NCBI RefSeq assembly: GCF_003334255.1
Contig: NZ_QOWU01000013.1
DNA from: Escherichia coli
GTDB lineage: Bacteria; Pseudomonadota; Gammaproteobacteria; Enterobacterales; Enterobacteriaceae
DNA length: 64,000 nt
Reading direction: 5' to 3' (one strand)
Shown: in pieces, positions 10,440 through 45,408 of the stretch
Layout of the letters: every line of letters begins with the position of its first letter
How positions within the stretch are numbered: the first letter of the stretch is position 1
Notes under the pieces: model-generated
Seen by the model: the letters and a program-made list of their open reading frames with translations, nothing else
Told to the model about the DNA's origin: nothing
Database searches by the model: none
Translations under genes and position numbers: made by a program

Positions 10440-10860
10440 ATGCCGGATACGGCCTACGGTTCGGCACAGACTTGTAGGCCTGATAAGACGCGTCAAGCGT
10501 CGCATCAGGCATTGTGCGCCAACTGCCGGATGCGGCGCGAACGCCTTATCCGGCCTACGGTTCGGCACAAACCTGTAGGCATGATAAGACGCGACAAGCG
10601 TCGCATCAGGCATTATGCGCCGACTGCCGGATGCGGCGTGAACGCCTTATCCGGCCTACGGTTCGGCACAGACTTGTAGGCATGATAAGACGCGACAAGC
10701 GTCGCATCAGGCATTGTGCGCCAACTGCCGGATGCGGCGTGAACGCCTTATCCGGCCTACGGTTCGGCACAAACCTGTAGGCATGATAAGACGCGTTAAG
10801 CGTCGCATCAGGCATTGTGCGCCAACTGCCGGATGCGGCGTGAACGCCTTATCCGGCCTA
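10440..10860. repeat. BIME: tandem array of at least 4 REP-pair units, about 100-bp period
   Basis: Unit GCCGGATGCGGCGTGAACGCCTTATCCGGCCTACGGTTCGGCACA...GTAGGCATGATAAGACGCG..AAGCGTCGCATCAGGCA recurs around 10440, 10540, 10640, 10740 and 10840 with point differences. Confidence 0.85.
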
Positions 10861-27744: not shown

Positions 27745-27773
27745 GTGTAGGTCGCATAGGGTGCGACCTACAC
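27745..27773. terminator. perfect 12-bp-stem hairpin between convergent opgB and lgoD
   Basis: GTGTAGGTCGCA-TAGGG-TGCGACCTACAC; no flanking T-run on either strand. Confidence 0.4.
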
Positions 27774-33225: not shown

Positions 33226-33602
33226 GGTTTCTCTTTCCTGTGGACCGATGCAAGATTTTCGGCCTGGAAAGGAAAAACTTTATGAATATCCCGCGGAGAT
33301 TACGCCGAGTGAATTTTATTCACACTCTGAATTTAAAAAGCCATTATTTACATAAATTATTCACAATATAAATATGTGATATGAATCACATATTTATCGT
33401 CACTTAAACGACGCCTTTGCCGCTCAACCGCAAAACTGACCGCTTACATCCCTAAAATAACCACTCAGTTATTTACCTTACTTTACGCGCGCGTAACTCT
33501 GGCAACATCACTACAGGATAGCGGTCAATTTACCTCCTCAAACGCAACGCAAACCTAGAACGGCTTCGGCCAACTATTAATCAATACATGCCAGGTTTTA
33601 CT

Positions 33603-37786: not shown

Positions 37787-38953
37787 GTGAAAAACTATAA
37801 AGTTATTACCCCGCTTTTTCCTACCTATGCACAGGTTAAAGCTATGATGAAAGCCGTCTCAGGCTATTCCCTGAAAGCGGTACGCAATATGATTACCGCC
37901 ATTCACGAGCAAACCGGTACGCCGCAAAAACCCGTTGACTGGTCGGAACCCGACCTGTGGATCAGCGAGCGCTTAACGGGTGAAGATGCCGACATCGCCC
38001 GTCGTATTTGGGATACCGATAATCACATCTTGAACCCGCGCCACAGCTACGGCTGCTACTTATTCCTCAACTATCCCCAGTTTGATCTGATGGAAAGCAC
38101 ACCAGATGATACCTGGCAGCCCACCTCGCACGGGCAAAAATTCCTGCAAGATGACGAAAAAACGCTGCGTTCACTGGACGATCAGGAAGGCATTCTGCAA
38201 CTTCTTGAACTATTAGCTGGCCGCGAAATGTCGCGCCGCGCCGATTTATTGCCGGAATGGCAGGCCTTTTTGCATCAGCATTCGAAATTCGCGTCTGCAA
38301 GTTCAGTGAAAAGCACGCTCTACTCCCGTCTCTATAACCTTATCGACCGTGACATGGTTAACCGTGAAGGCATGAGCTATCGCATCACCGATACCGGGCG
38401 CGCCTGACTTGGAAAAGCGTTACCTGCACGAAAAAGCGATCCGCGTAAAGAGCTGTTGGAAGCGGTAAAACGCTATAACGAACAGCAAAAAGAGCTGCTG
38501 CGCGAACAAATCAGCACGATGAACCCGTACAAATTTGAACAACTGGTCGGTCAATTACTGGAAGCAATGGGCTACGAGCAGGTCGAAGTGACCAAAGCCT
38601 CTGGCGATAAAGGCGTGGACGTGATTGGTCAGGTGCAGGTCGGCATCACCACCATTACAGAAGTGGTGCAGGTCAAAAGAATGCAGAACACTATCACTCG
38701 CCCGTATATCGACCAGTTGCGCGGGGCGTTGCCTTACCACAAAGCCATTCGCGGTACGCTCATCACCACCGGGAAATTTGCGGCGAAATGTGCAGAAGCG
38801 GCGCTCTTTCCGGGTGCCGCGCCCATTACGCTTATCGACGGCGATCGTTTACTGGAACTGTTAATCGAAAATAACGTCGGCATTCGCCGCAGCAATGCAG
38901 TGGAATTGCTGGATGTAGATTTGCAGTTGTTTGATGAGCTGGAGATGGATTAA
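37787..38953 (+). pseudogene. Mrr-family type IV restriction endonuclease homolog (N-terminal winged-helix plus C-terminal Mrr_cat), interrupted by one in-frame TGA
   Basis: Track ORFs 37787..38407 and 38456..38953 are in the same frame (38456-37787 = 669 = 3 x 223), separated only by TGA at 38405..38407; the C-terminal part carries GDKGVDVIG...VVQVKRMQNTITRP resembling K-12 Mrr GDGGIDGVI...VQAKRWQNTVGRP. Confidence 0.6.
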
Positions 38954-39016: not shown

Positions 39017-40625
<1,609 letters not shown>

Positions 40626-40636
<11 letters not shown>

Positions 40637-42017
40637 TGGCTTCAAGTTACCTCTAGGATGGAATTGTAAAAAACTGGTTGATTGTACAAAGGAGGGAAAT
40701 ATCTCTTATGGTATTGTTCAACCAGGTCAGCATCAAGAAGATGGCATTGGTATTATTCGTGTAAATAATATACAAAATGGAAATATTTACATAGACGATG
40801 TTCTGAAGGTTTCTCATGAAATAGAAAGTAAATTTGCCAAAACTAGGTTAGAAGGAGGAGAAGTACTTTTAACACTAGTGGGTTCCACTGGAATTAGCGC
40901 CATTACAACTAAAGCACTACAGGGATGGAATGTTGCTCGTGCCGTAGCCGTAATTAAGCCATGCGATGAAATAAGTGCAGAGTGGATACATATTTGCCTC
41001 CAATCACCTTTTACAAAATATTTTTTGGATTCCAGAGCTAATACTACTGTTCAGAAAACTCTCAATCTCAAAGACGTGAAAGAAATTCCATTACCAATTC
41101 CTCCACATGAGGAAAGAGTAAGTCTTGAGAAAATTTACTTCAATTTTGAGAATAGAATAAACTTAAATATAAAAATTAATAAAATCCTAGAAGAAATGTC
41201 ACAAAACCTGTTCAAATCCTGGTTTGTAGATTTTGATCCGGTGGTTGATAACGCTCTGGATGCAGGAAACCCAATTCCGGAAGCCCTGCAATCTCGCGCC
41301 GAATTGCGTCAAAAAGTACGTAATAGTGCAGATTTTAAACCGCTTCCGGCGGAAATCCGCTCGCTTTTCCCAAGTGAATTTGAAGAAACGGAGTTGGGTT
41401 GGATGCCAAAGGGATGGCAAATTAAATCATTAGATCATATTGCTAATTTCCAGAATGGTTTGGCTTTACAAAAATTTAGGCCGAAGAATATGGAGGATGA
41501 TTATTTACCTGTATTAAAAATAGCAGATCTCCGAGCAGGACAAATAACTAATGACGAACGAGCAAGAACTGATATTTCTGATAGTTGTAAGGTGTATGAC
41601 GGCGATATGATTTTCTCATGGTCGGGGACTTTGATGATCGATATTTGGACTGGTGGGAATGCTGCATTAAATCAGCATTTATATAAGGTCACATCAAAAA
41701 AATACCCACAATCTTTTTATTTTATGTGGACAATACAGCATCTTTCAAGATTTCAACATATTGCAGAGGCAAAAGCGGTAACAATGGGGCACATCAAAAA
41801 AGGAGATTTAAGTAACTCTTTCTGTCTAATTCCTACTTCATCGTTGATTACTAAATATGATAATATCGTTGGAGGATATTTAGCGAAGATTAAAAATCAA
41901 AGATTGTTAAATAACCAAATGACCGCCCTACGCGACACCCTGCTCCCGAAACTCATCTCCGGCGAGCTATCCCTGGACGATATTCCGGATCTCAACACCG
42001 ATACAGAAGCTGCATAA
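40626..42017 (+). CDS. hsdS: type I restriction-modification specificity subunit
   Basis: 463-aa ORF overlapping the hsdM stop by 11 nt; two AT-rich segments separated by a GC-normal central region. Confidence 0.85.
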
Positions 42018-42025
42018 CGCATTTT

Positions 42026-42098
42026 GCCCCTGTAAAATCAGGGGCTTTCTGGTAAGGTTTTCTACTGATACGGGAATGCTTACCAGAAATTAGCCAGG
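42026..42098 (+). promoter_or_regulatory. hsdS-hsdR intergenic hairpins (terminator-like stem plus a longer overlapping inverted repeat)
   Basis: GCCCCTG-TAAAAT-CAGGGGC followed by TTTCT; then TTCTGGTAAG...(22 nt)...CTTACCAGAA. Confidence 0.45.
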
Positions 42099-42099
42099 G

Positions 42100-45000
42100 T
42101 TGGAGCGCGATATGAGTCTCTCTTTCAGTGAAGCAAAATTAGAACAAGCGATCATTGAACTGTTACAGGATCAGGGATATCAACACCTGATCGGCGATAA
42201 TGTCCCACGTTCGACTCTCGATCAGGTCATTATCGAAGACGATCTCCGTCATTATTTAGCGGCACGCTACCAGCCTGATGGCATTACTGAAGAAGAGATT
42301 CAGCGACTGATCAAACAGTTCACCACGCTTCCGGCCTCCGATCTTTATGAAAGCAACAAAACATTTTGTCGCTGGCTGGCAAATGGTTTTCTGTTCAAAC
42401 GCGACGATCGGCAAAAAAAAGATCTCTATATTGAATTGCTCGACACCCGGCATCTACCTGCCGCACTGCGCCAGATATTTGACGCTGAAGATGTCCCGTT
42501 GCAACAGGCGGCGGAACTCCCGCCCTCCTATATTAATCCGCCGCTTAACCGGATTAAGATTGTTAACCAGCTTAAAATCTCCGGTAAAGATAATCAGACT
42601 CGTATTCCTGACGGCATTCTCTATATCAACGGTCTGCCACTGGTCGTCTTTGAATTTAAAAGCGCGGTGCGCGAGCAGGAAGCCAATATAGGCGATGCCT
42701 GGAAGCAGCTCTGCAAACGCTATCGCCGGGATATTCCGCAACTGTTTATCTACAACGCGCTCTGCATTATTAGCGATGGTGTAAATAACCGGATGGGCAA
42801 CCTGTTTGCGCCCTATGAATACTTTTACTCATGGCGCAAAGTCACCGGTAATGAAAACCGTGAACAGGACGGAATTCCATCATTGCACTCAATGATTCAG
42901 GGACTGTTTCATCCGGTACGTCTGTTGGATGTGATTAAAAACTTTATCTGCTTCCCGGATAAAGCCAAGCACGAAGTAAAAATTTGCTGCCGATATCCGC
43001 AGTACTATGCCGCCCGCAAACTCTATTACAGCATCAAGCAAGCGCGTAAACCTTTCGGTAGCGGTAAAGGCGGTACCTACTTTGGCGCAACGGGCTGCGG
43101 AAAAAGCTACACCATGCAATTTTTAACCCGCCTGTTAATGAAAAGCGTGGAGTTTGCCAGCCCGACCATTGTTTTGATCACCGACCGTACCGATCTGGAC
43201 GATCAGCTTTCTGCGCAAATGTGCAACGCCAAAAATTACATTGGCGATGACACCATCGTTCCCGTTACCAGCCGTGAAGATTTGCGTAATCAACTGGCGG
43301 GACGCAATAGTGGCGGTGTATTCCTGACAACGATCCATAAATTCACCGAAGACACCGAACTCCTTTCTGAACGCAGCAATATCATTTGCATCTCGGACGA
43401 AGCACATCGCAGTCAGGTTAACCTCGACCAGAAAGTCATCGTCGATAAAGAAAGCGGAAAAGTGCGCAAAACTTATGGCTTTGCGAAATACCTGCACGAT
43501 TCACTGCCAAACGCCACCTATGTTGGCTTTACCGGAACTCCGATTGACGCAACACTCGATGTCTTCGGTGAGGTGATCGACAGTTACACCATGACCGAAT
43601 CCGTTCAGGATGAAATCACTGTACGCATCGTGTACGAAGGCCGTGCGGCTAAAGTGATCCTGGACTCCAGCAAACTGGAAGAAGTCGAAAAGTATTACGA
43701 AGAGTGCGCAAACGCAGGCACCAATGAGTGGCAAATCGACGAAAGCAAAAAAGCCACCGCAACCATGAATGCGGTACTGGGTGATGAAGATCGGTTAAAA
43801 GCCCTCGCGGAAGATTTTGCCAAACATTATGAAAAACGCGTAGCCGAAGGTTCCACCGTAAAAGGCAAAGCCATGTTTGTTTGTGCCAGCCGTGAAATTG
43901 CCTGGGATTTCTACCGCCAGCTTAAAGTTATTCGCCCTGCCTGGTTTGAAGTGAAGCAAGCCCCCGATGGCGTCGTCCTGACGGAACAGGAGCAGAAAGA
44001 GTTACCGCCTTCTGAAATGGTGAAGATGGTCATGACGCGCGGTAAAGATGACGACGAGGCGCTTTATGATTTACTGGGCACAAAAGAATATCGCAAAGAG
44101 CTGGATAAGCAGTTCAAAAACGCTAAATCGAATTTCAAAATTGCCATTGTTGTTGATATGTGGCTGACCGGTTTTGATGTTCCTGAACTGGATACCATCT
44201 ATATTGATAAGCCCTTACAAAAACATAACCTTATCCAGACTATTTCTCGCGTTAACCGTAAACTGGAAGGCAAAAGCAAAGGGTTAGTAGTGGACTACAT
44301 CGGCATTAAGAGTCAGATGAACCAGGCACTGGCAATGTATTCCCGCATTGATGCCACCAACTTTGAAGATATTCAGCAATCGGTAATAGAAGTTAAAAAC
44401 CATCTCGATTTGTTGGGGCAAGTATTTTATGAATTCGACAGTCGGGATTATTTTAGTGGTGAGCCACAAGCGCAATTATCCTGCCTCAACCGCGCGGCGG
44501 AATTTGTTCTGCGCACTCAGAAAGTTGAACGTCGTTTTATGGGACTGGTTAAACGCATGAAAGCCGCCTACGACGTCTGCTGCGGCAGTGAAGCACTATC
44601 ACAGACAGAACGTGATCATATTCACTATTATCTTGCTGTTCGTTCAATTGTTTTCAAACTGACGAAAGGTGACGCACCGGATGTCACCCAGATGAATGCA
44701 CGCGTTCGTGAAATGATTGCAGAAGCGCTAAAAGCTGATGGCGTAGAAGAAATTTATTTTCTTGGCGATAAAAAAGCGGAATCCATCGATATTTTTGACG
44801 AAGATTATCTGGCGCGAATTAACAAGATCAAACTTCCGGCAACGAAGATCCAGTTATTACAAAAATTACTGGAAAAAGCGATCAGCGACTTCAAGAAAGT
44901 GAACCAGTTGCAAGGGATTAACTTCACCCGCCGCTTCCAGGCGATTATAGATCGTTATAATGAGCGGCGAGAAGATGATGTACTCAACGGTGAAGAATTC

Positions 45001-45375
45001 GATACATTCAGTCAGGAAATGACCGATATTATCTATGATATTAAAACCGAAATGGGCACATGGGCCGATTTAGGTATTGATATTGAAGAAAAAGCGTTTT
45101 TCGACATTCTTGCTCATATGCGCGATAAATATCAGTTCACCTATGACGATGAAAAAATGCTGTCACTGGCAAAAGAGATGAAAAGCGTGGTTGACAACAC
45201 ATCGAAATATCCTGACTGGAGTAAACGCGATGATATTAAAGCGAAACTGAAAGTTGAACTTATTCTGCTTCTACACAAGCATAAGTTCCCGCCAGTAGCA
45301 AATGATGATGTTTATATGGGTGTGCTGGCACAGGCAGAGAATTTTAAAGAACATCATATGAGTGCTTTAAATTAA
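42100..45375 (+). CDS. hsdR: type I restriction enzyme R subunit (helicase/endonuclease)
   Basis: 1091-aa ORF with helicase motifs (GCGKSYT Walker A-like; DEAH-like ICISDEAHRSQ); the likelier start is ATG 42112 (GGAG 8 nt upstream). Confidence 0.9.
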   Translation: MERDMSLSFSEAKLEQAIIELLQDQGYQHLIGDNVPRSTLDQVIIEDDLRHYLAARYQPDGITEEEIQRLIKQFTTLPASDLYESNKTFCRWLANGFLFKRDDRQKKDLYIELLDTRHLPAALRQIFDAEDVPLQQAAELPPSYINPPLNRIKIVNQLKISGKDNQTRIPDGILYINGLPLVVFEFKSAVREQEANIGDAWKQLCKRYRRDIPQLFIYNALCIISDGVNNRMGNLFAPYEYFYSWRKVTGNENREQDGIPSLHSMIQGLFHPVRLLDVIKNFICFPDKAKHEVKICCRYPQYYAARKLYYSIKQARKPFGSGKGGTYFGATGCGKSYTMQFLTRLLMKSVEFASPTIVLITDRTDLDDQLSAQMCNAKNYIGDDTIVPVTSREDLRNQLAGRNSGGVFLTTIHKFTEDTELLSERSNIICISDEAHRSQVNLDQKVIVDKESGKVRKTYGFAKYLHDSLPNATYVGFTGTPIDATLDVFGEVIDSYTMTESVQDEITVRIVYEGRAAKVILDSSKLEEVEKYYEECANAGTNEWQIDESKKATATMNAVLGDEDRLKALAEDFAKHYEKRVAEGSTVKGKAMFVCASREIAWDFYRQLKVIRPAWFEVKQAPDGVVLTEQEQKELPPSEMVKMVMTRGKDDDEALYDLLGTKEYRKELDKQFKNAKSNFKIAIVVDMWLTGFDVPELDTIYIDKPLQKHNLIQTISRVNRKLEGKSKGLVVDYIGIKSQMNQALAMYSRIDATNFEDIQQSVIEVKNHLDLLGQVFYEFDSRDYFSGEPQAQLSCLNRAAEFVLRTQKVERRFMGLVKRMKAAYDVCCGSEALSQTERDHIHYYLAVRSIVFKLTKGDAPDVTQMNARVREMIAEALKADGVEEIYFLGDKKAESIDIFDEDYLARINKIKLPATKIQLLQKLLEKAISDFKKVNQLQGINFTRRFQAIIDRYNERREDDVLNGEEFDTFSQEMTDIIYDIKTEMGTWADLGIDIEEKAFFDILAHMRDKYQFTYDDEKMLSLAKEMKSVVDNTSKYPDWSKRDDIKAKLKVELILLLHKHKFPPVANDDVYMGVLAQAENFKEHHMSALN

Positions 45376-45382
45376 TTATGAA

Positions 45383-45408
45383 GGCCGGATACACTTTGTT
45401 ATCCGGCC
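45383..45408 (+). terminator. hairpin downstream of hsdR
   Basis: GGCCGGATA-CACTTTGT-TATCCGGCC directly after the hsdR stop; weak T-tail. Confidence 0.4.

What the first reader, a model, noticed from the sequence alone, without database searches (positions are those of the whole stretch)
42018..42099. Structured spacer between hsdS and hsdR: terminator-like hairpin overlapping a longer inverted repeat
A 7-bp GC stem followed by TTTCT lies directly after hsdS. It overlaps a second inverted repeat (TTCTGGTAAG/CTTACCAGAA, 22-nt loop) that ends just before the hsdR start. The two structures are mutually exclusive, which is attenuator-like geometry and could set the HsdR to HsdM/HsdS ratio.
Basis: seen in the sequence. 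Interest (0 to 1): 0.45.

Follow-up and report, generated by a model that had tools for sequence, protein, structure and literature searches.

The report
Two conserved hairpins between hsdS, hsdR
The 94-base gap between the specificity and nuclease genes of this E. coli type I restriction system holds two adjacent RNA hairpins that are conserved across enteric bacteria; they form together rather than competing, so this looks like a fixed weak terminator plus a second stem-loop, not a switch.

Summary
Both inverted repeats are real. H1 is GCCCCTG/CAGGGGC (42026-32/42039-45) followed by TTTCT. H2 is 11 bp, not 10: TTTCTGGTAAG/CTTACCAGAAA (42046-56/42079-89), with an inner 5-bp helix.

They are not mutually exclusive. 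They share no paired base; only H1's T-tail is the start of H2's 5' arm. The predicted fold contains both, with pair probabilities of about 0.9-1.0.

The module is single-copy, unannotated and absent from Rfam. It occurs in 862-864 of 5426 complete E. coli genomes, always between hsdS and hsdR.

Selection on it is strong. The stems are about 100% identical between E. coli and Klebsiella-type relatives, whereas fourfold-degenerate sites of hsdR are only 46-51% identical. Photorhabdus, Xenorhabdus and other relatives keep the same two-hairpin layout with compensatory changes. In Xenorhabdus H1 carries a canonical U-run.

Best reading: H1 is a constitutive, leaky intrinsic terminator or 3'-end stabiliser that lowers hsdR relative to hsdMS. 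H2 is a conserved mRNA stem-loop of unproven role, possibly processing or stability.

The attenuator-switch idea is not supported. The ratio-setting idea remains plausible but untested. This is an ordinary kind of element and a new, well-conserved example.

The parts
40626..42017 (+). hsdS (specificity subunit); stop codon TAA at 42015-42017
   Evidence: ORF list. RefSeq annotation of the identical S88 locus. NCBIfam specificity-subunit matches, below the curated cut-offs.
42026..42045 (+). H1: 7-bp G+C-rich stem GCCCCUG/CAGGGGC with 6-nt loop, predicted -13.7 kcal/mol
   Evidence: Paired in 99% of cells across 30 distinct variants, with G-C to C-G swaps in L056 and L106. A-U in L128 and a U-A loop-closing pair in Photorhabdus.
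42046..42050 (+). UUUCU tail of H1, a weak U-tract; also the first bases of the H2 5' arm
   Evidence: Discriminant score is borderline (d about +4). Lengthened to a long U-run in Xenorhabdus.
42046..42089 (+). H2: 11-bp outer helix (42046-56/42079-89), 2x2 internal loop, 5-bp inner helix (42059-63/42072-76), 8-nt apical loop; predicted -17.7 kcal/mol
   Evidence: Conserved in all Enterobacteriaceae variants. Photorhabdus keeps it with four compensatory pairs, CUGG/CCAG changed to GCCU/AGGC.
42090..42111 (+). Linker with conserved AGCCAGGG and the Shine-Dalgarno GGAG (42102-42105) of hsdR
   Evidence: GGAGCG.GATATG nearly invariant.
42112..45375 (+). hsdR (restriction subunit, 1087 aa)
   Evidence: TIGR00348 HsdR match of 465 bits against a cut-off of 284.55.
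39017..40636 (+). hsdM (methylase subunit), overlapping hsdS by 11 nt; first gene of the M-S-R array
   Evidence: TIGR00497 hsdM match of 175 bits, below the curated cut-off of 242.75.

Best explanation
The hsdS-hsdR spacer encodes a fixed, non-switching, two-hairpin RNA module in the hsdM-hsdS-hsdR mRNA.

H1. This is a G+C-rich hairpin 8 nt after the hsdS stop with a weak UUUCU tail. It acts as a leaky intrinsic terminator and/or a 3'-end-protecting hairpin for the hsdMS message. Fewer stable transcripts would then carry hsdR than hsdM and hsdS.

hsdR expression. In E. coli and its close relatives, hsdR is made mainly from transcripts that read through H1. No convincing promoter lies in the spacer.

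H2. It forms immediately 3' of H1 in every read-through transcript, using the U-tail as the start of its 5' arm. It is a conserved structural element of the hsdR leader. Its most likely role is in mRNA processing or stability: an RNase III-type site, or a protective 5' hairpin after cleavage. It may also keep the 94-nt untranslated gap structured.

Shown: the structures, their compatibility, their conservation and their covariation.
Inferred: partial termination, read-through expression of hsdR, and the role of H2.
For: 1. Both hairpins are in the MFE and centroid fold, with pair probabilities of about 0.9-1.0 and z = -4.1. The Klebsiella-type spacer gives z = -4.8.
2. RNAalifold on 30 distinct variants predicts H1 and H2 side by side.
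3. Purifying selection is strong. Fourfold-degenerate sites of hsdR are only 46-51% identical between E. coli and Citrobacter, Klebsiella, Pluralibacter and Enterobacter relatives. All 36 stem bases are identical between E. coli and Klebsiella L012, and substitutions fall in the loops and linkers.
4. Covariation. H1's closing pair appears as G-C, C-G, A-U and G-U. Photorhabdus H2 differs at four consecutive pairs but stays paired. On 17 sequences, 24 cells changed on both sides against 5.6 +/- 2.0 in shuffles (0/500). The covariation score was 0.243 against 0.109 (0/500) and at most 0.125 for slid partners.
5. G.U pairs that would be A.C on the other strand (U61.G74 in 27 of 30 variants) point to the + strand RNA.
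6. A covariance model finds the module once in the window (91 bits). It also finds it directly after hsdS in Yokenella, Salmonella, Pragia, Photorhabdus (E about 2e-4) and, more weakly, Xenorhabdus.
7. Terminator reading. H1 passes the terminator-like scan. The homologous Xenorhabdus hairpin has a long U-run. A sister subfamily (Proteus, Serratia, E. asburiae) has an unrelated hairpin plus UUUUUGUUAU at the same place.
8. No sigma-70 match was found in the spacer. My weight-matrix candidates score at a level expected about once per 200 nt.
9. More distant relatives (Aliiglaciecola, Paraglaciecola, Pseudoalteromonas) have hsdS and hsdR abutting or separated by a short unstructured gap, consistent with one M-S-R operon.
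Against: - No transcript data exist: no 3' ends, no start sites, no RNA levels. Termination, read-through and processing are therefore all inferred.
- The U-tract is poor. The discriminant score is borderline in E. coli and negative in several relatives (formula recalled from memory). H1 may terminate very little and act only as a stabiliser.
- Within Enterobacteriaceae, H2 shows no compensatory change, and pair 42052-42083 is broken in 8 of 30 variants.
- Xenorhabdus H2 is U-run against A-run, which is low complexity, and its alignment is uncertain.
- One lineage (L130) has lost both hairpins.
- A weak or non-canonical hsdR promoter cannot be excluded. EcoKI's promoters are described as weak (PMC12707154).
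Confidence: 0.5

Rival explanations
1. H1 (terminator) and H2 are mutually exclusive folds, so the spacer is a regulated attenuator that switches between termination and read-through to tune hsdR.
For: The T-tail of H1 (42046-42050) is also the start of the H2 5' arm. A terminator-like hairpin between an M/S unit and R is a natural place for control.
Against: - No base is shared between the two stems.
- Both are present in the MFE, the centroid and the alignment consensus folds, with probabilities of about 1. The same holds in Klebsiella-type, Pragia, Photorhabdus and Xenorhabdus spacers.
- H2's 3' arm is made after RNA polymerase has passed the H1 release point, so it cannot act as an antiterminator.
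- No upstream complement of either H1 arm is visible. No riboswitch or leader family matched.
Confidence: 0.03
2. Terminator plus promoter. H1 ends the hsdMS transcript, and the conserved sequence of the H2 5' arm is an extended -10 promoter for hsdR: CTGTAA, 17 nt, TGgTAAGGT, starting near 42064. The conservation would then reflect a promoter or operator, as in the two-promoter layout of other type I families.
For: - The candidate scores in the 99.9th percentile of my weight matrix.
- The freely varying position 42052 (G, T or A in 8 of 30 variants) is exactly the 'n' of TGnTAAGGT.
- EcoKI has separate promoters for hsdR and hsdMS, with an apparent terminator between them (PMC12707154).
- Xenorhabdus has a strong terminator followed by a longer AT-rich spacer with TATGAT.
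Against: - That score is expected about once per 200 nt by chance, and the consensus scan found nothing in the spacer.
- The motif is not kept where pairing is kept. Photorhabdus has TAAGGC, losing the -7 T, and Xenorhabdus has TAAGAG.
- It does not explain the equally strong conservation of the 3' arm, or the compensatory changes.
Confidence: 0.15
3. H2 is a DNA palindrome bound by a dimeric protein (a regulator of hsdR, or a recombination or insulation site), not an RNA structure.
For: Perfect 11-bp arms whose centres lie 33 bp apart, about three helical turns. Sequence conservation is high, with little covariation inside Enterobacteriaceae.
Against: - G.U wobble pairs are used on the + strand only.
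- The inner helix and the flush stacking on H1 are also conserved.
- Photorhabdus changes both arms in a complementary way.
- No regulator gene travels with the locus.
- Both partners of pair 42052/42083 vary independently.
Confidence: 0.07
4. It is a decayed mobile or repeated element (REP/BIME-like or MITE) or a chance palindrome with no role, conserved only because the locus spread recently.
For: - The window carries other repeat-derived hairpins, for example four naRNA4 copies.
- About 0.9 chance perfect inverted repeats of 11 bp or more are expected per shuffled window.
- The hsd region is horizontally mobile.
Against: - One copy per locus, and only at hsdS-hsdR, in 862 genomes.
- One + strand hit in the window with the covariance model.
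- No Rfam match.
- Flanking synonymous sites are close to saturation (46-51% identity) while the stems are unchanged.
- The structure is kept with different sequence in Morganellaceae.
Confidence: 0.03

Closest known systems
Intra-operon partial terminator followed by a processing hairpin: the rplL-rpoB intergenic attenuator and RNase III site of E. coli (from my own knowledge, not checked here)
   Same: A hairpin with an imperfect U-tract lies between cistrons whose products are needed in different amounts. A second, longer stem-loop follows it in the read-through RNA. The setting is constitutive rather than switched.
   Different: No experimental evidence exists here for termination or RNase III cleavage. 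The spacer is only 94 nt. H2 is about 16-17 bp with an internal loop and abuts H1 with no linker.
EcoKI (type IA) hsdR / hsdMS layout with two promoters and an apparent terminator after hsdR (PMC12707154)
   Same: A type I system in the same chromosomal island. A structured gap separates the R gene from the M/S genes. The K-12 hsdR-hsdM spacer also folds unusually well (z = -3.7).
   Different: - The gene order here is M-S-R, not R-M-S.
- HsdR is only 25% identical over 219 aa.
- The spacer is 94 nt against 200 nt.
- No promoter is recognisable in it.
Classical transcription attenuators and riboswitch expression platforms (trp leader type)
   Same: A terminator-like hairpin lies upstream of a gene whose dosage matters.
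   Different: The defining alternative pairing is absent. H1 and H2 share no paired base and coexist. There is no leader peptide, no ligand-binding domain and no upstream antiterminator.
Intercistronic stabilising hairpins such as the REP sequences in malE-malF (from my own knowledge)
   Same: A stable hairpin just after an upstream cistron can protect it from 3' exonucleases and raise it relative to the downstream gene.
   Different: This is not a dispersed repeat. There is a single copy per locus, and it has no similarity to REP or naRNA4 models.

Membership tests
Rho-independent (intrinsic) terminator | G+C-rich stem of about 5-14 bp with a loop of 3-8 nt | tested here: met
   7 bp with 6 G-C pairs, a 6-nt loop, -13.7 kcal/mol.
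Rho-independent (intrinsic) terminator | U-rich tract of about 7-9 nt directly after the stem | tested here: inconclusive
   UUUCUGGU has 5 U in 8, of which only 3 are contiguous. It passes the simple scan. The discriminant score is borderline (d about +4) and negative in several relatives (formula from memory). It is clearly met in Xenorhabdus.
Rho-independent (intrinsic) terminator | RNA 3' ends generated at the U-tract in vivo or in vitro | not testable with these tools
   No transcript data. Needs Term-seq, 3'-RACE or in vitro transcription.
Transcription attenuator (terminator/antiterminator switch) | An alternative helix that uses bases of the terminator stem, so that the two folds exclude each other | tested here: not met
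   H1 is 42026-42045 and H2 is 42046-42089, with no shared paired base. Both are present in the MFE, centroid and consensus folds, with probabilities of about 1.
Transcription attenuator (terminator/antiterminator switch) | The competing element is made before the terminator is completed, and a sensor is present (leader peptide, ligand or protein site) | tested here: not met
   H2's 3' arm lies 34 nt or more downstream of H1. No complement of the H1 arms is visible upstream. No riboswitch or leader family matched.
Any curated RNA family (Rfam 15) | Match at the family's gathering score | tested here: not met
   The best hits over the spacer score 15.6-18.1 bits against gathering scores of 46.7-100. 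Nothing was found there in the whole-window gathering search.
Dispersed repeat (REP/BIME, MITE) | Many copies per genome in unrelated contexts | tested here: not met
   Median 1 place per genome, always at hsdS-hsdR, and absent from the other roughly 4560 E. coli genomes. One + strand hit in the window.
RNase III processing site | Roughly two turns of double-stranded RNA, often with an internal loop | tested here: inconclusive
   H2 is 11 + 5 bp in E. coli, 12 + 5 bp in Klebsiella and 9 + 7 bp in Photorhabdus. That is near the lower size limit. Cleavage is not testable here.
Type ID restriction-modification family (StySBLI, EcoR9I, KpnAI): context of the element | Subunit complementation, antibody cross-reaction or high identity with a named prototype | not tested
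   No prototype sequence was at hand. Indirect support:
- The locus lies in the yjiA-side immigration control region with brnTA, symE and symR.
- It is not type IA (25% identity to EcoKI HsdR).
- HsdR is 90% identical to a K. pneumoniae homologue.
- It is present in 16% of E. coli genomes, against about 15% reported for type ID at the two hotspots (PMC12707154).

The most novel reading that the evidence does not exclude
The H1-H2 tandem is a dedicated cis-regulatory RNA module of this (probably type ID) restriction family. It would limit or delay HsdR synthesis at the RNA level. Two routes are possible. In one, read-through of H1 depends on a ribosome terminating 8 nt upstream at the hsdS stop. 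In the other, H2 is cleaved or bound to control hsdR mRNA life. Either would give a built-in safeguard when the system enters an unmodified host. So far only post-translational control, such as ClpXP proteolysis, is described for type I families (types IA and IB).
Probability: 0.15. Interest if true: 0.55.

Novelty: new member of a known kind. Interest (0 to 1): 0.28.

Why it matters
A recent review states that very little is known about transcriptional control of type I restriction systems (PMC12707154). The cell must avoid making nuclease before methylase. This spacer is strongly conserved, supported by covariation and not annotated, and it sits exactly where the R-to-M/S ratio could be set. 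About one in six complete E. coli genomes carry it, including ST131-type strains, as do Klebsiella, Salmonella, Citrobacter and others. If it does lower or time hsdR expression, it would be a simple handle for studying or engineering restriction barriers. If not, it is just a well-kept terminator and hairpin pair.

Tried and rejected
1. Mutually exclusive folding. Rejected by single-sequence, ensemble and alignment folds.
2. A closing helix pairing the hsdS stop region with the hsdR start codon, as seen in the E. coli MFE. It is only 72% paired across variants and many pairs are window-specific, so it is not supported. The linker after H2 also varies from about 22 nt to about 50 nt between genera, by my count on the sequences. 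That weakens a stop-to-start coupling idea.
3. A promoter in the H1 loop (TAAAAT at 42033). The loop varies (AAAAAT, TTAAAT, TCAAAC), so it is not conserved.
4. The extended -10 candidate TGgTAAGGT. See the rival explanations; it is not kept in Photorhabdus or Xenorhabdus.
5. A small ORF, ATGCTTACCAGAAATTAG at 42076-42093. The ATG is absent outside the E. coli-type spacer.
6. A CsrA-type GGA site. The GGA of the inner helix is paired, not in a loop.
7. Rfam, at both permissive and gathering thresholds. Nothing found.
8. A plasmid search. It gave only one record, a chromosome-sized replicon.
9. Literature. The type ID paper (PMC60208) is not held. The other searches found no description of this spacer.
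10. MAFFT misaligned the Photorhabdus 3' arm in one alignment (A6). I used A5, checking each pair by script.

Full report
**Where it is**

The window is E. coli, 100% identical over the queried 801-base stretch (41700-42500) to ATCC 11775, S88 and other strains. The region lies in the yjiA-side immigration control region. The gene order is brnTA, an mrr-like pseudogene, hsdM (39017-40636), hsdS (40626-42017), a 94-nt spacer, hsdR (ATG 42112-45375), then symR/symE. NCBIfam places HsdR well above its curated cut-off (TIGR00348, 465 bits against 284.55). HsdM and HsdS match the corresponding type I family models, but below the curated cut-offs. HsdR is only 25% identical over 219 aa to EcoKI HsdR, so the system is not type IA. 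Four things make type ID the probable family: the M-S-R order, the location, 90% identity to a K. pneumoniae homologue, and a frequency of 16% of E. coli genomes. I did not test it against a named prototype.

**The observation**

H1 is GCCCCTG (42026-32), loop TAAAAT, CAGGGGC (42039-45), followed by TTTCT. H2 is TTTCTGGTAAG (42046-56) paired with CTTACCAGAAA (42079-89). That is 11 bp rather than the 10 reported. Its 22-nt interior contains a further 5-bp helix.

The claim that the two are mutually exclusive is wrong. H1 ends at 42045 and H2 begins at 42046. The only overlap is between H1's T-tail and H2's 5' arm.
- The MFE and centroid structures of 42000-42125 contain both hairpins (-45.7 kcal/mol, z = -4.1, 0 of 200 shuffles as good).
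- In a 321-nt context, pair probabilities are 0.97-1.0 for H1 and 0.89-1.0 for all but the outermost H2 pair.
- H1 alone is -13.7 kcal/mol and H2 alone is -17.7 kcal/mol.

Taken singly, neither motif exceeds chance. The terminator-like scan finds 9 sites in 8 kb against 9.0 expected. About 0.9 perfect inverted repeats of 11 bp or more are expected per shuffled window. The case therefore rests on comparison with relatives.

**Distribution**

The spacer is found in 862-864 of 5426 complete E. coli genomes. The median is one place per genome, always between the S and R genes, and no feature is annotated there. It is not a dispersed repeat. The covariance model built later finds a single + strand hit in the window. 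Rfam has nothing at either threshold.

**Conservation**

I collected HsdR relatives from species genomes. I also collected 71 metagenome contigs, matched through a pattern in the start of hsdR that is unbiased with respect to the hairpins. This gave about 45 distinct spacer variants, of which 30 were aligned (A2).

RNAalifold predicts H1 and H2, with the inner helix, side by side. Between E. coli and Citrobacter, Klebsiella, Pluralibacter, Superficieibacter and Enterobacter relatives, fourfold-degenerate sites of hsdR are only 46-51% identical. Against that background, all 36 bases of the H1 stem and the H2 outer arms are identical between E. coli and Klebsiella L012. At 0.49 identity per site, that outcome would have a probability of about 7e-12 (my arithmetic). 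Substitutions cluster in the two loops and the linkers. The spacer is under strong purifying selection.

**Covariation**

Inside Enterobacteriaceae it is thin:
- H1 is 99% paired, with one compensatory pair (G-C to C-G in L056 and L106; L056 also gains a C-G pair).
- H2 is 95.7% paired, with one-sided G-C to G-U or U.G to U-A changes but no double change.
- Pair 42052-42083 is broken in 8 of 30 variants.

More distant loci, fetched through protein look-ups, settle the matter:
- L128 (85% HsdR identity) has an A-U closing pair in H1.
- Photorhabdus has H1 GCCCCUU/AAGGGGU. Its H2 is UUUGCCUUAAGGCUUUU / AAAAGCCCUAAGGCAAA, in which four consecutive pairs differ from E. coli on both sides (CUGG/CCAG changed to GCCU/AGGC) and remain paired.
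- Xenorhabdus has H1 followed by a long U-run that pairs with a downstream A-run.
- All of these fold into the same layout: H1, then H2 starting at the next base.

On a 17-sequence alignment, 92% of cells pair. There are 24 cells changed on both sides against 5.6 +/- 2.0 in shuffles (0/500). The covariation score is 0.243 against 0.109 (0/500) and at most 0.125 when partners are slid.

Three caveats apply. The three Xenorhabdus rows are related to one another. They are poorly aligned in H2. Their H2 is low-complexity sequence.

G.U pairs that would be mismatches on the other strand (U61.G74 in 27 of 30 variants) favour a + strand RNA structure. A covariance model of the module recovers it directly after hsdS in several relatives:
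- Yokenella, Salmonella, L128 and Pragia: 73-93 bits.
- Photorhabdus: 34.7 bits, E about 2e-4.
- L130: E about 8e-4.
- Xenorhabdus: weakly, E 0.06-4.

One lineage (L130) has lost both helices.

**What H1 is**

It sits 8 nt after the stop codon, or 4-9 nt in relatives by my count on the sequences. It is G+C rich and is followed by UUUCU. With the d'Aubenton-Carafa discriminant, recalled from memory, it scores about +4 in E. coli, which is borderline. It scores negative in several relatives and +16 to +17 in Xenorhabdus. In Xenorhabdus the scan calls a canonical terminator.

A sister subfamily (Proteus, Serratia fonticola, Enterobacter asburiae; 71-73% HsdR identity) has an unrelated hairpin followed by UUUUUGUUAU at the same position. 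More distant relatives have hsdS and hsdR abutting, or separated by a short unstructured gap.

The recurrent feature is therefore a terminator-type hairpin between the M/S genes and the R gene. In E. coli it is weak.

**Is there an hsdR promoter in the spacer?**

The consensus scan finds none. My weight matrix gives two candidates near the 99.9th percentile, a level expected about once per 200 nt:
- The one in the H1 loop is not conserved.
- The other is CTGTAA, 17 nt, TGgTAAGGT. The freely varying base 42052 falls on its 'n' position, which is curious. However, the motif is not kept in Photorhabdus or Xenorhabdus, where the pairing is kept.

I therefore favour read-through expression of hsdR in E. 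coli and its close relatives. A weak promoter remains a live rival. Xenorhabdus combines a strong terminator with a longer AT-rich spacer containing TATGAT. That fits a trade-off between terminator strength and a separate promoter, but this is inference only.

**Why it is not an attenuator switch**

An antiterminator must use terminator-stem bases and must form first. H2 uses none of them, and its 3' arm is made 34 nt or more after H1. No upstream complement of either H1 arm is visible in 41900-42025. One possible link to translation remains: a ribosome stopped at UAA would reach about the first base of H1 and could slightly weaken it. This is untested.

**Role of H2**

This is unproven. The most likely role is a processing or stability element in the hsdR leader, by analogy with the rplL-rpoB attenuator and RNase III site (my own knowledge). 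Alternatively it may simply keep the untranslated gap structured. A DNA-palindrome or protein-site reading is disfavoured by the wobble pairs and by the compensatory changes.

**Comparison and verdict**

The K-12 type IA hsdR-hsdM spacer is also unusually structured (z = -3.7). It is reported to contain a terminator and a promoter (PMC12707154). The element here is an ordinary kind of thing: an intercistronic terminator-like hairpin plus a stem-loop. The example is new, unannotated and strongly conserved. The switch interpretation is not supported. The ratio-setting idea is plausible but untested.

Noticed in passing
window 37787-38953 (+): An mrr-like restriction endonuclease gene just upstream of hsdM is broken by an internal stop, giving two ORFs (37787-38407 and 38456-38953). 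It is annotated as a pseudogene in the identical S88 locus.
   Followed up: no
window 45383-45408 (+): hsdR is followed 8 nt after its stop by a 9-bp hairpin, GGCCGGATA/TATCCGGCC, with a poor tail (ATTCTGAATT). Its terminator discriminant is strongly negative. The array therefore ends in a hairpin rather than a clear terminator, just before symR/symE.
   Followed up: partly
window 45520-45596 (-): SymR antitoxin RNA (Rfam RF01809, 95 bits), antisense to the start of symE. This is the same toxin-antitoxin pair that flanks the type IA hsd genes in K-12.
   Followed up: no
window 10477-10858 (-): Four tandem copies of naRNA4 (RF02564, 75-80 bits each), spaced 101 nt apart. This is a REP-derived repeat array.
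   Followed up: no
window 42076-42093 (+): A five-codon mini-ORF, ATG CTT ACC AGA AAT TAG, lies inside the 3' half of H2 in the E. coli-type spacer only. The ATG is absent in Klebsiella-type and other relatives, so it is probably meaningless.
   Followed up: yes
window 42052 and 42083: The seventh pair of H2 is the one place where the stem varies freely without compensation. G changes to T or A in 8 of 30 variants, and C changes to A or G in Pragia and L088. Xenorhabdus has a mismatch at the equivalent place. It coincides with the 'n' of a possible TGnTAAGGT extended -10 motif.
   Followed up: partly
L017 2470-2492, L137 and L131 (Xenorhabdus): In Xenorhabdus the Shine-Dalgarno GGAG of hsdR is buried in a 7-bp hairpin, CCGCUUC/GGAGCGG. 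E. coli has only a 3-bp version (CCA/UGG).
   Followed up: no
L130 1690-1800 (metagenome contig, 81% HsdR identity): This lineage keeps recognisable spacer sequence, but both hairpins have decayed. H1 is reduced to about 2 bp, and H2 has two mismatches.
   Followed up: no
L139 5050-5249 (K-12 hsdR-hsdM spacer, - strand): The 200-nt gap between hsdR and hsdM of the type IA EcoKI system also folds unusually well (z = -3.7). It includes a 9-bp G+C-rich hairpin shortly before hsdM.
   Followed up: partly
window 33368-33397 and 27745-27773: Two other long perfect palindromes are present in the window: ATAAATATGTGAT/ATCACATATTTAT (13 bp, 4-nt gap) and GTGTAGGTCGCA/TGCGACCTACAC (12 bp, 5-nt gap).
   Followed up: no
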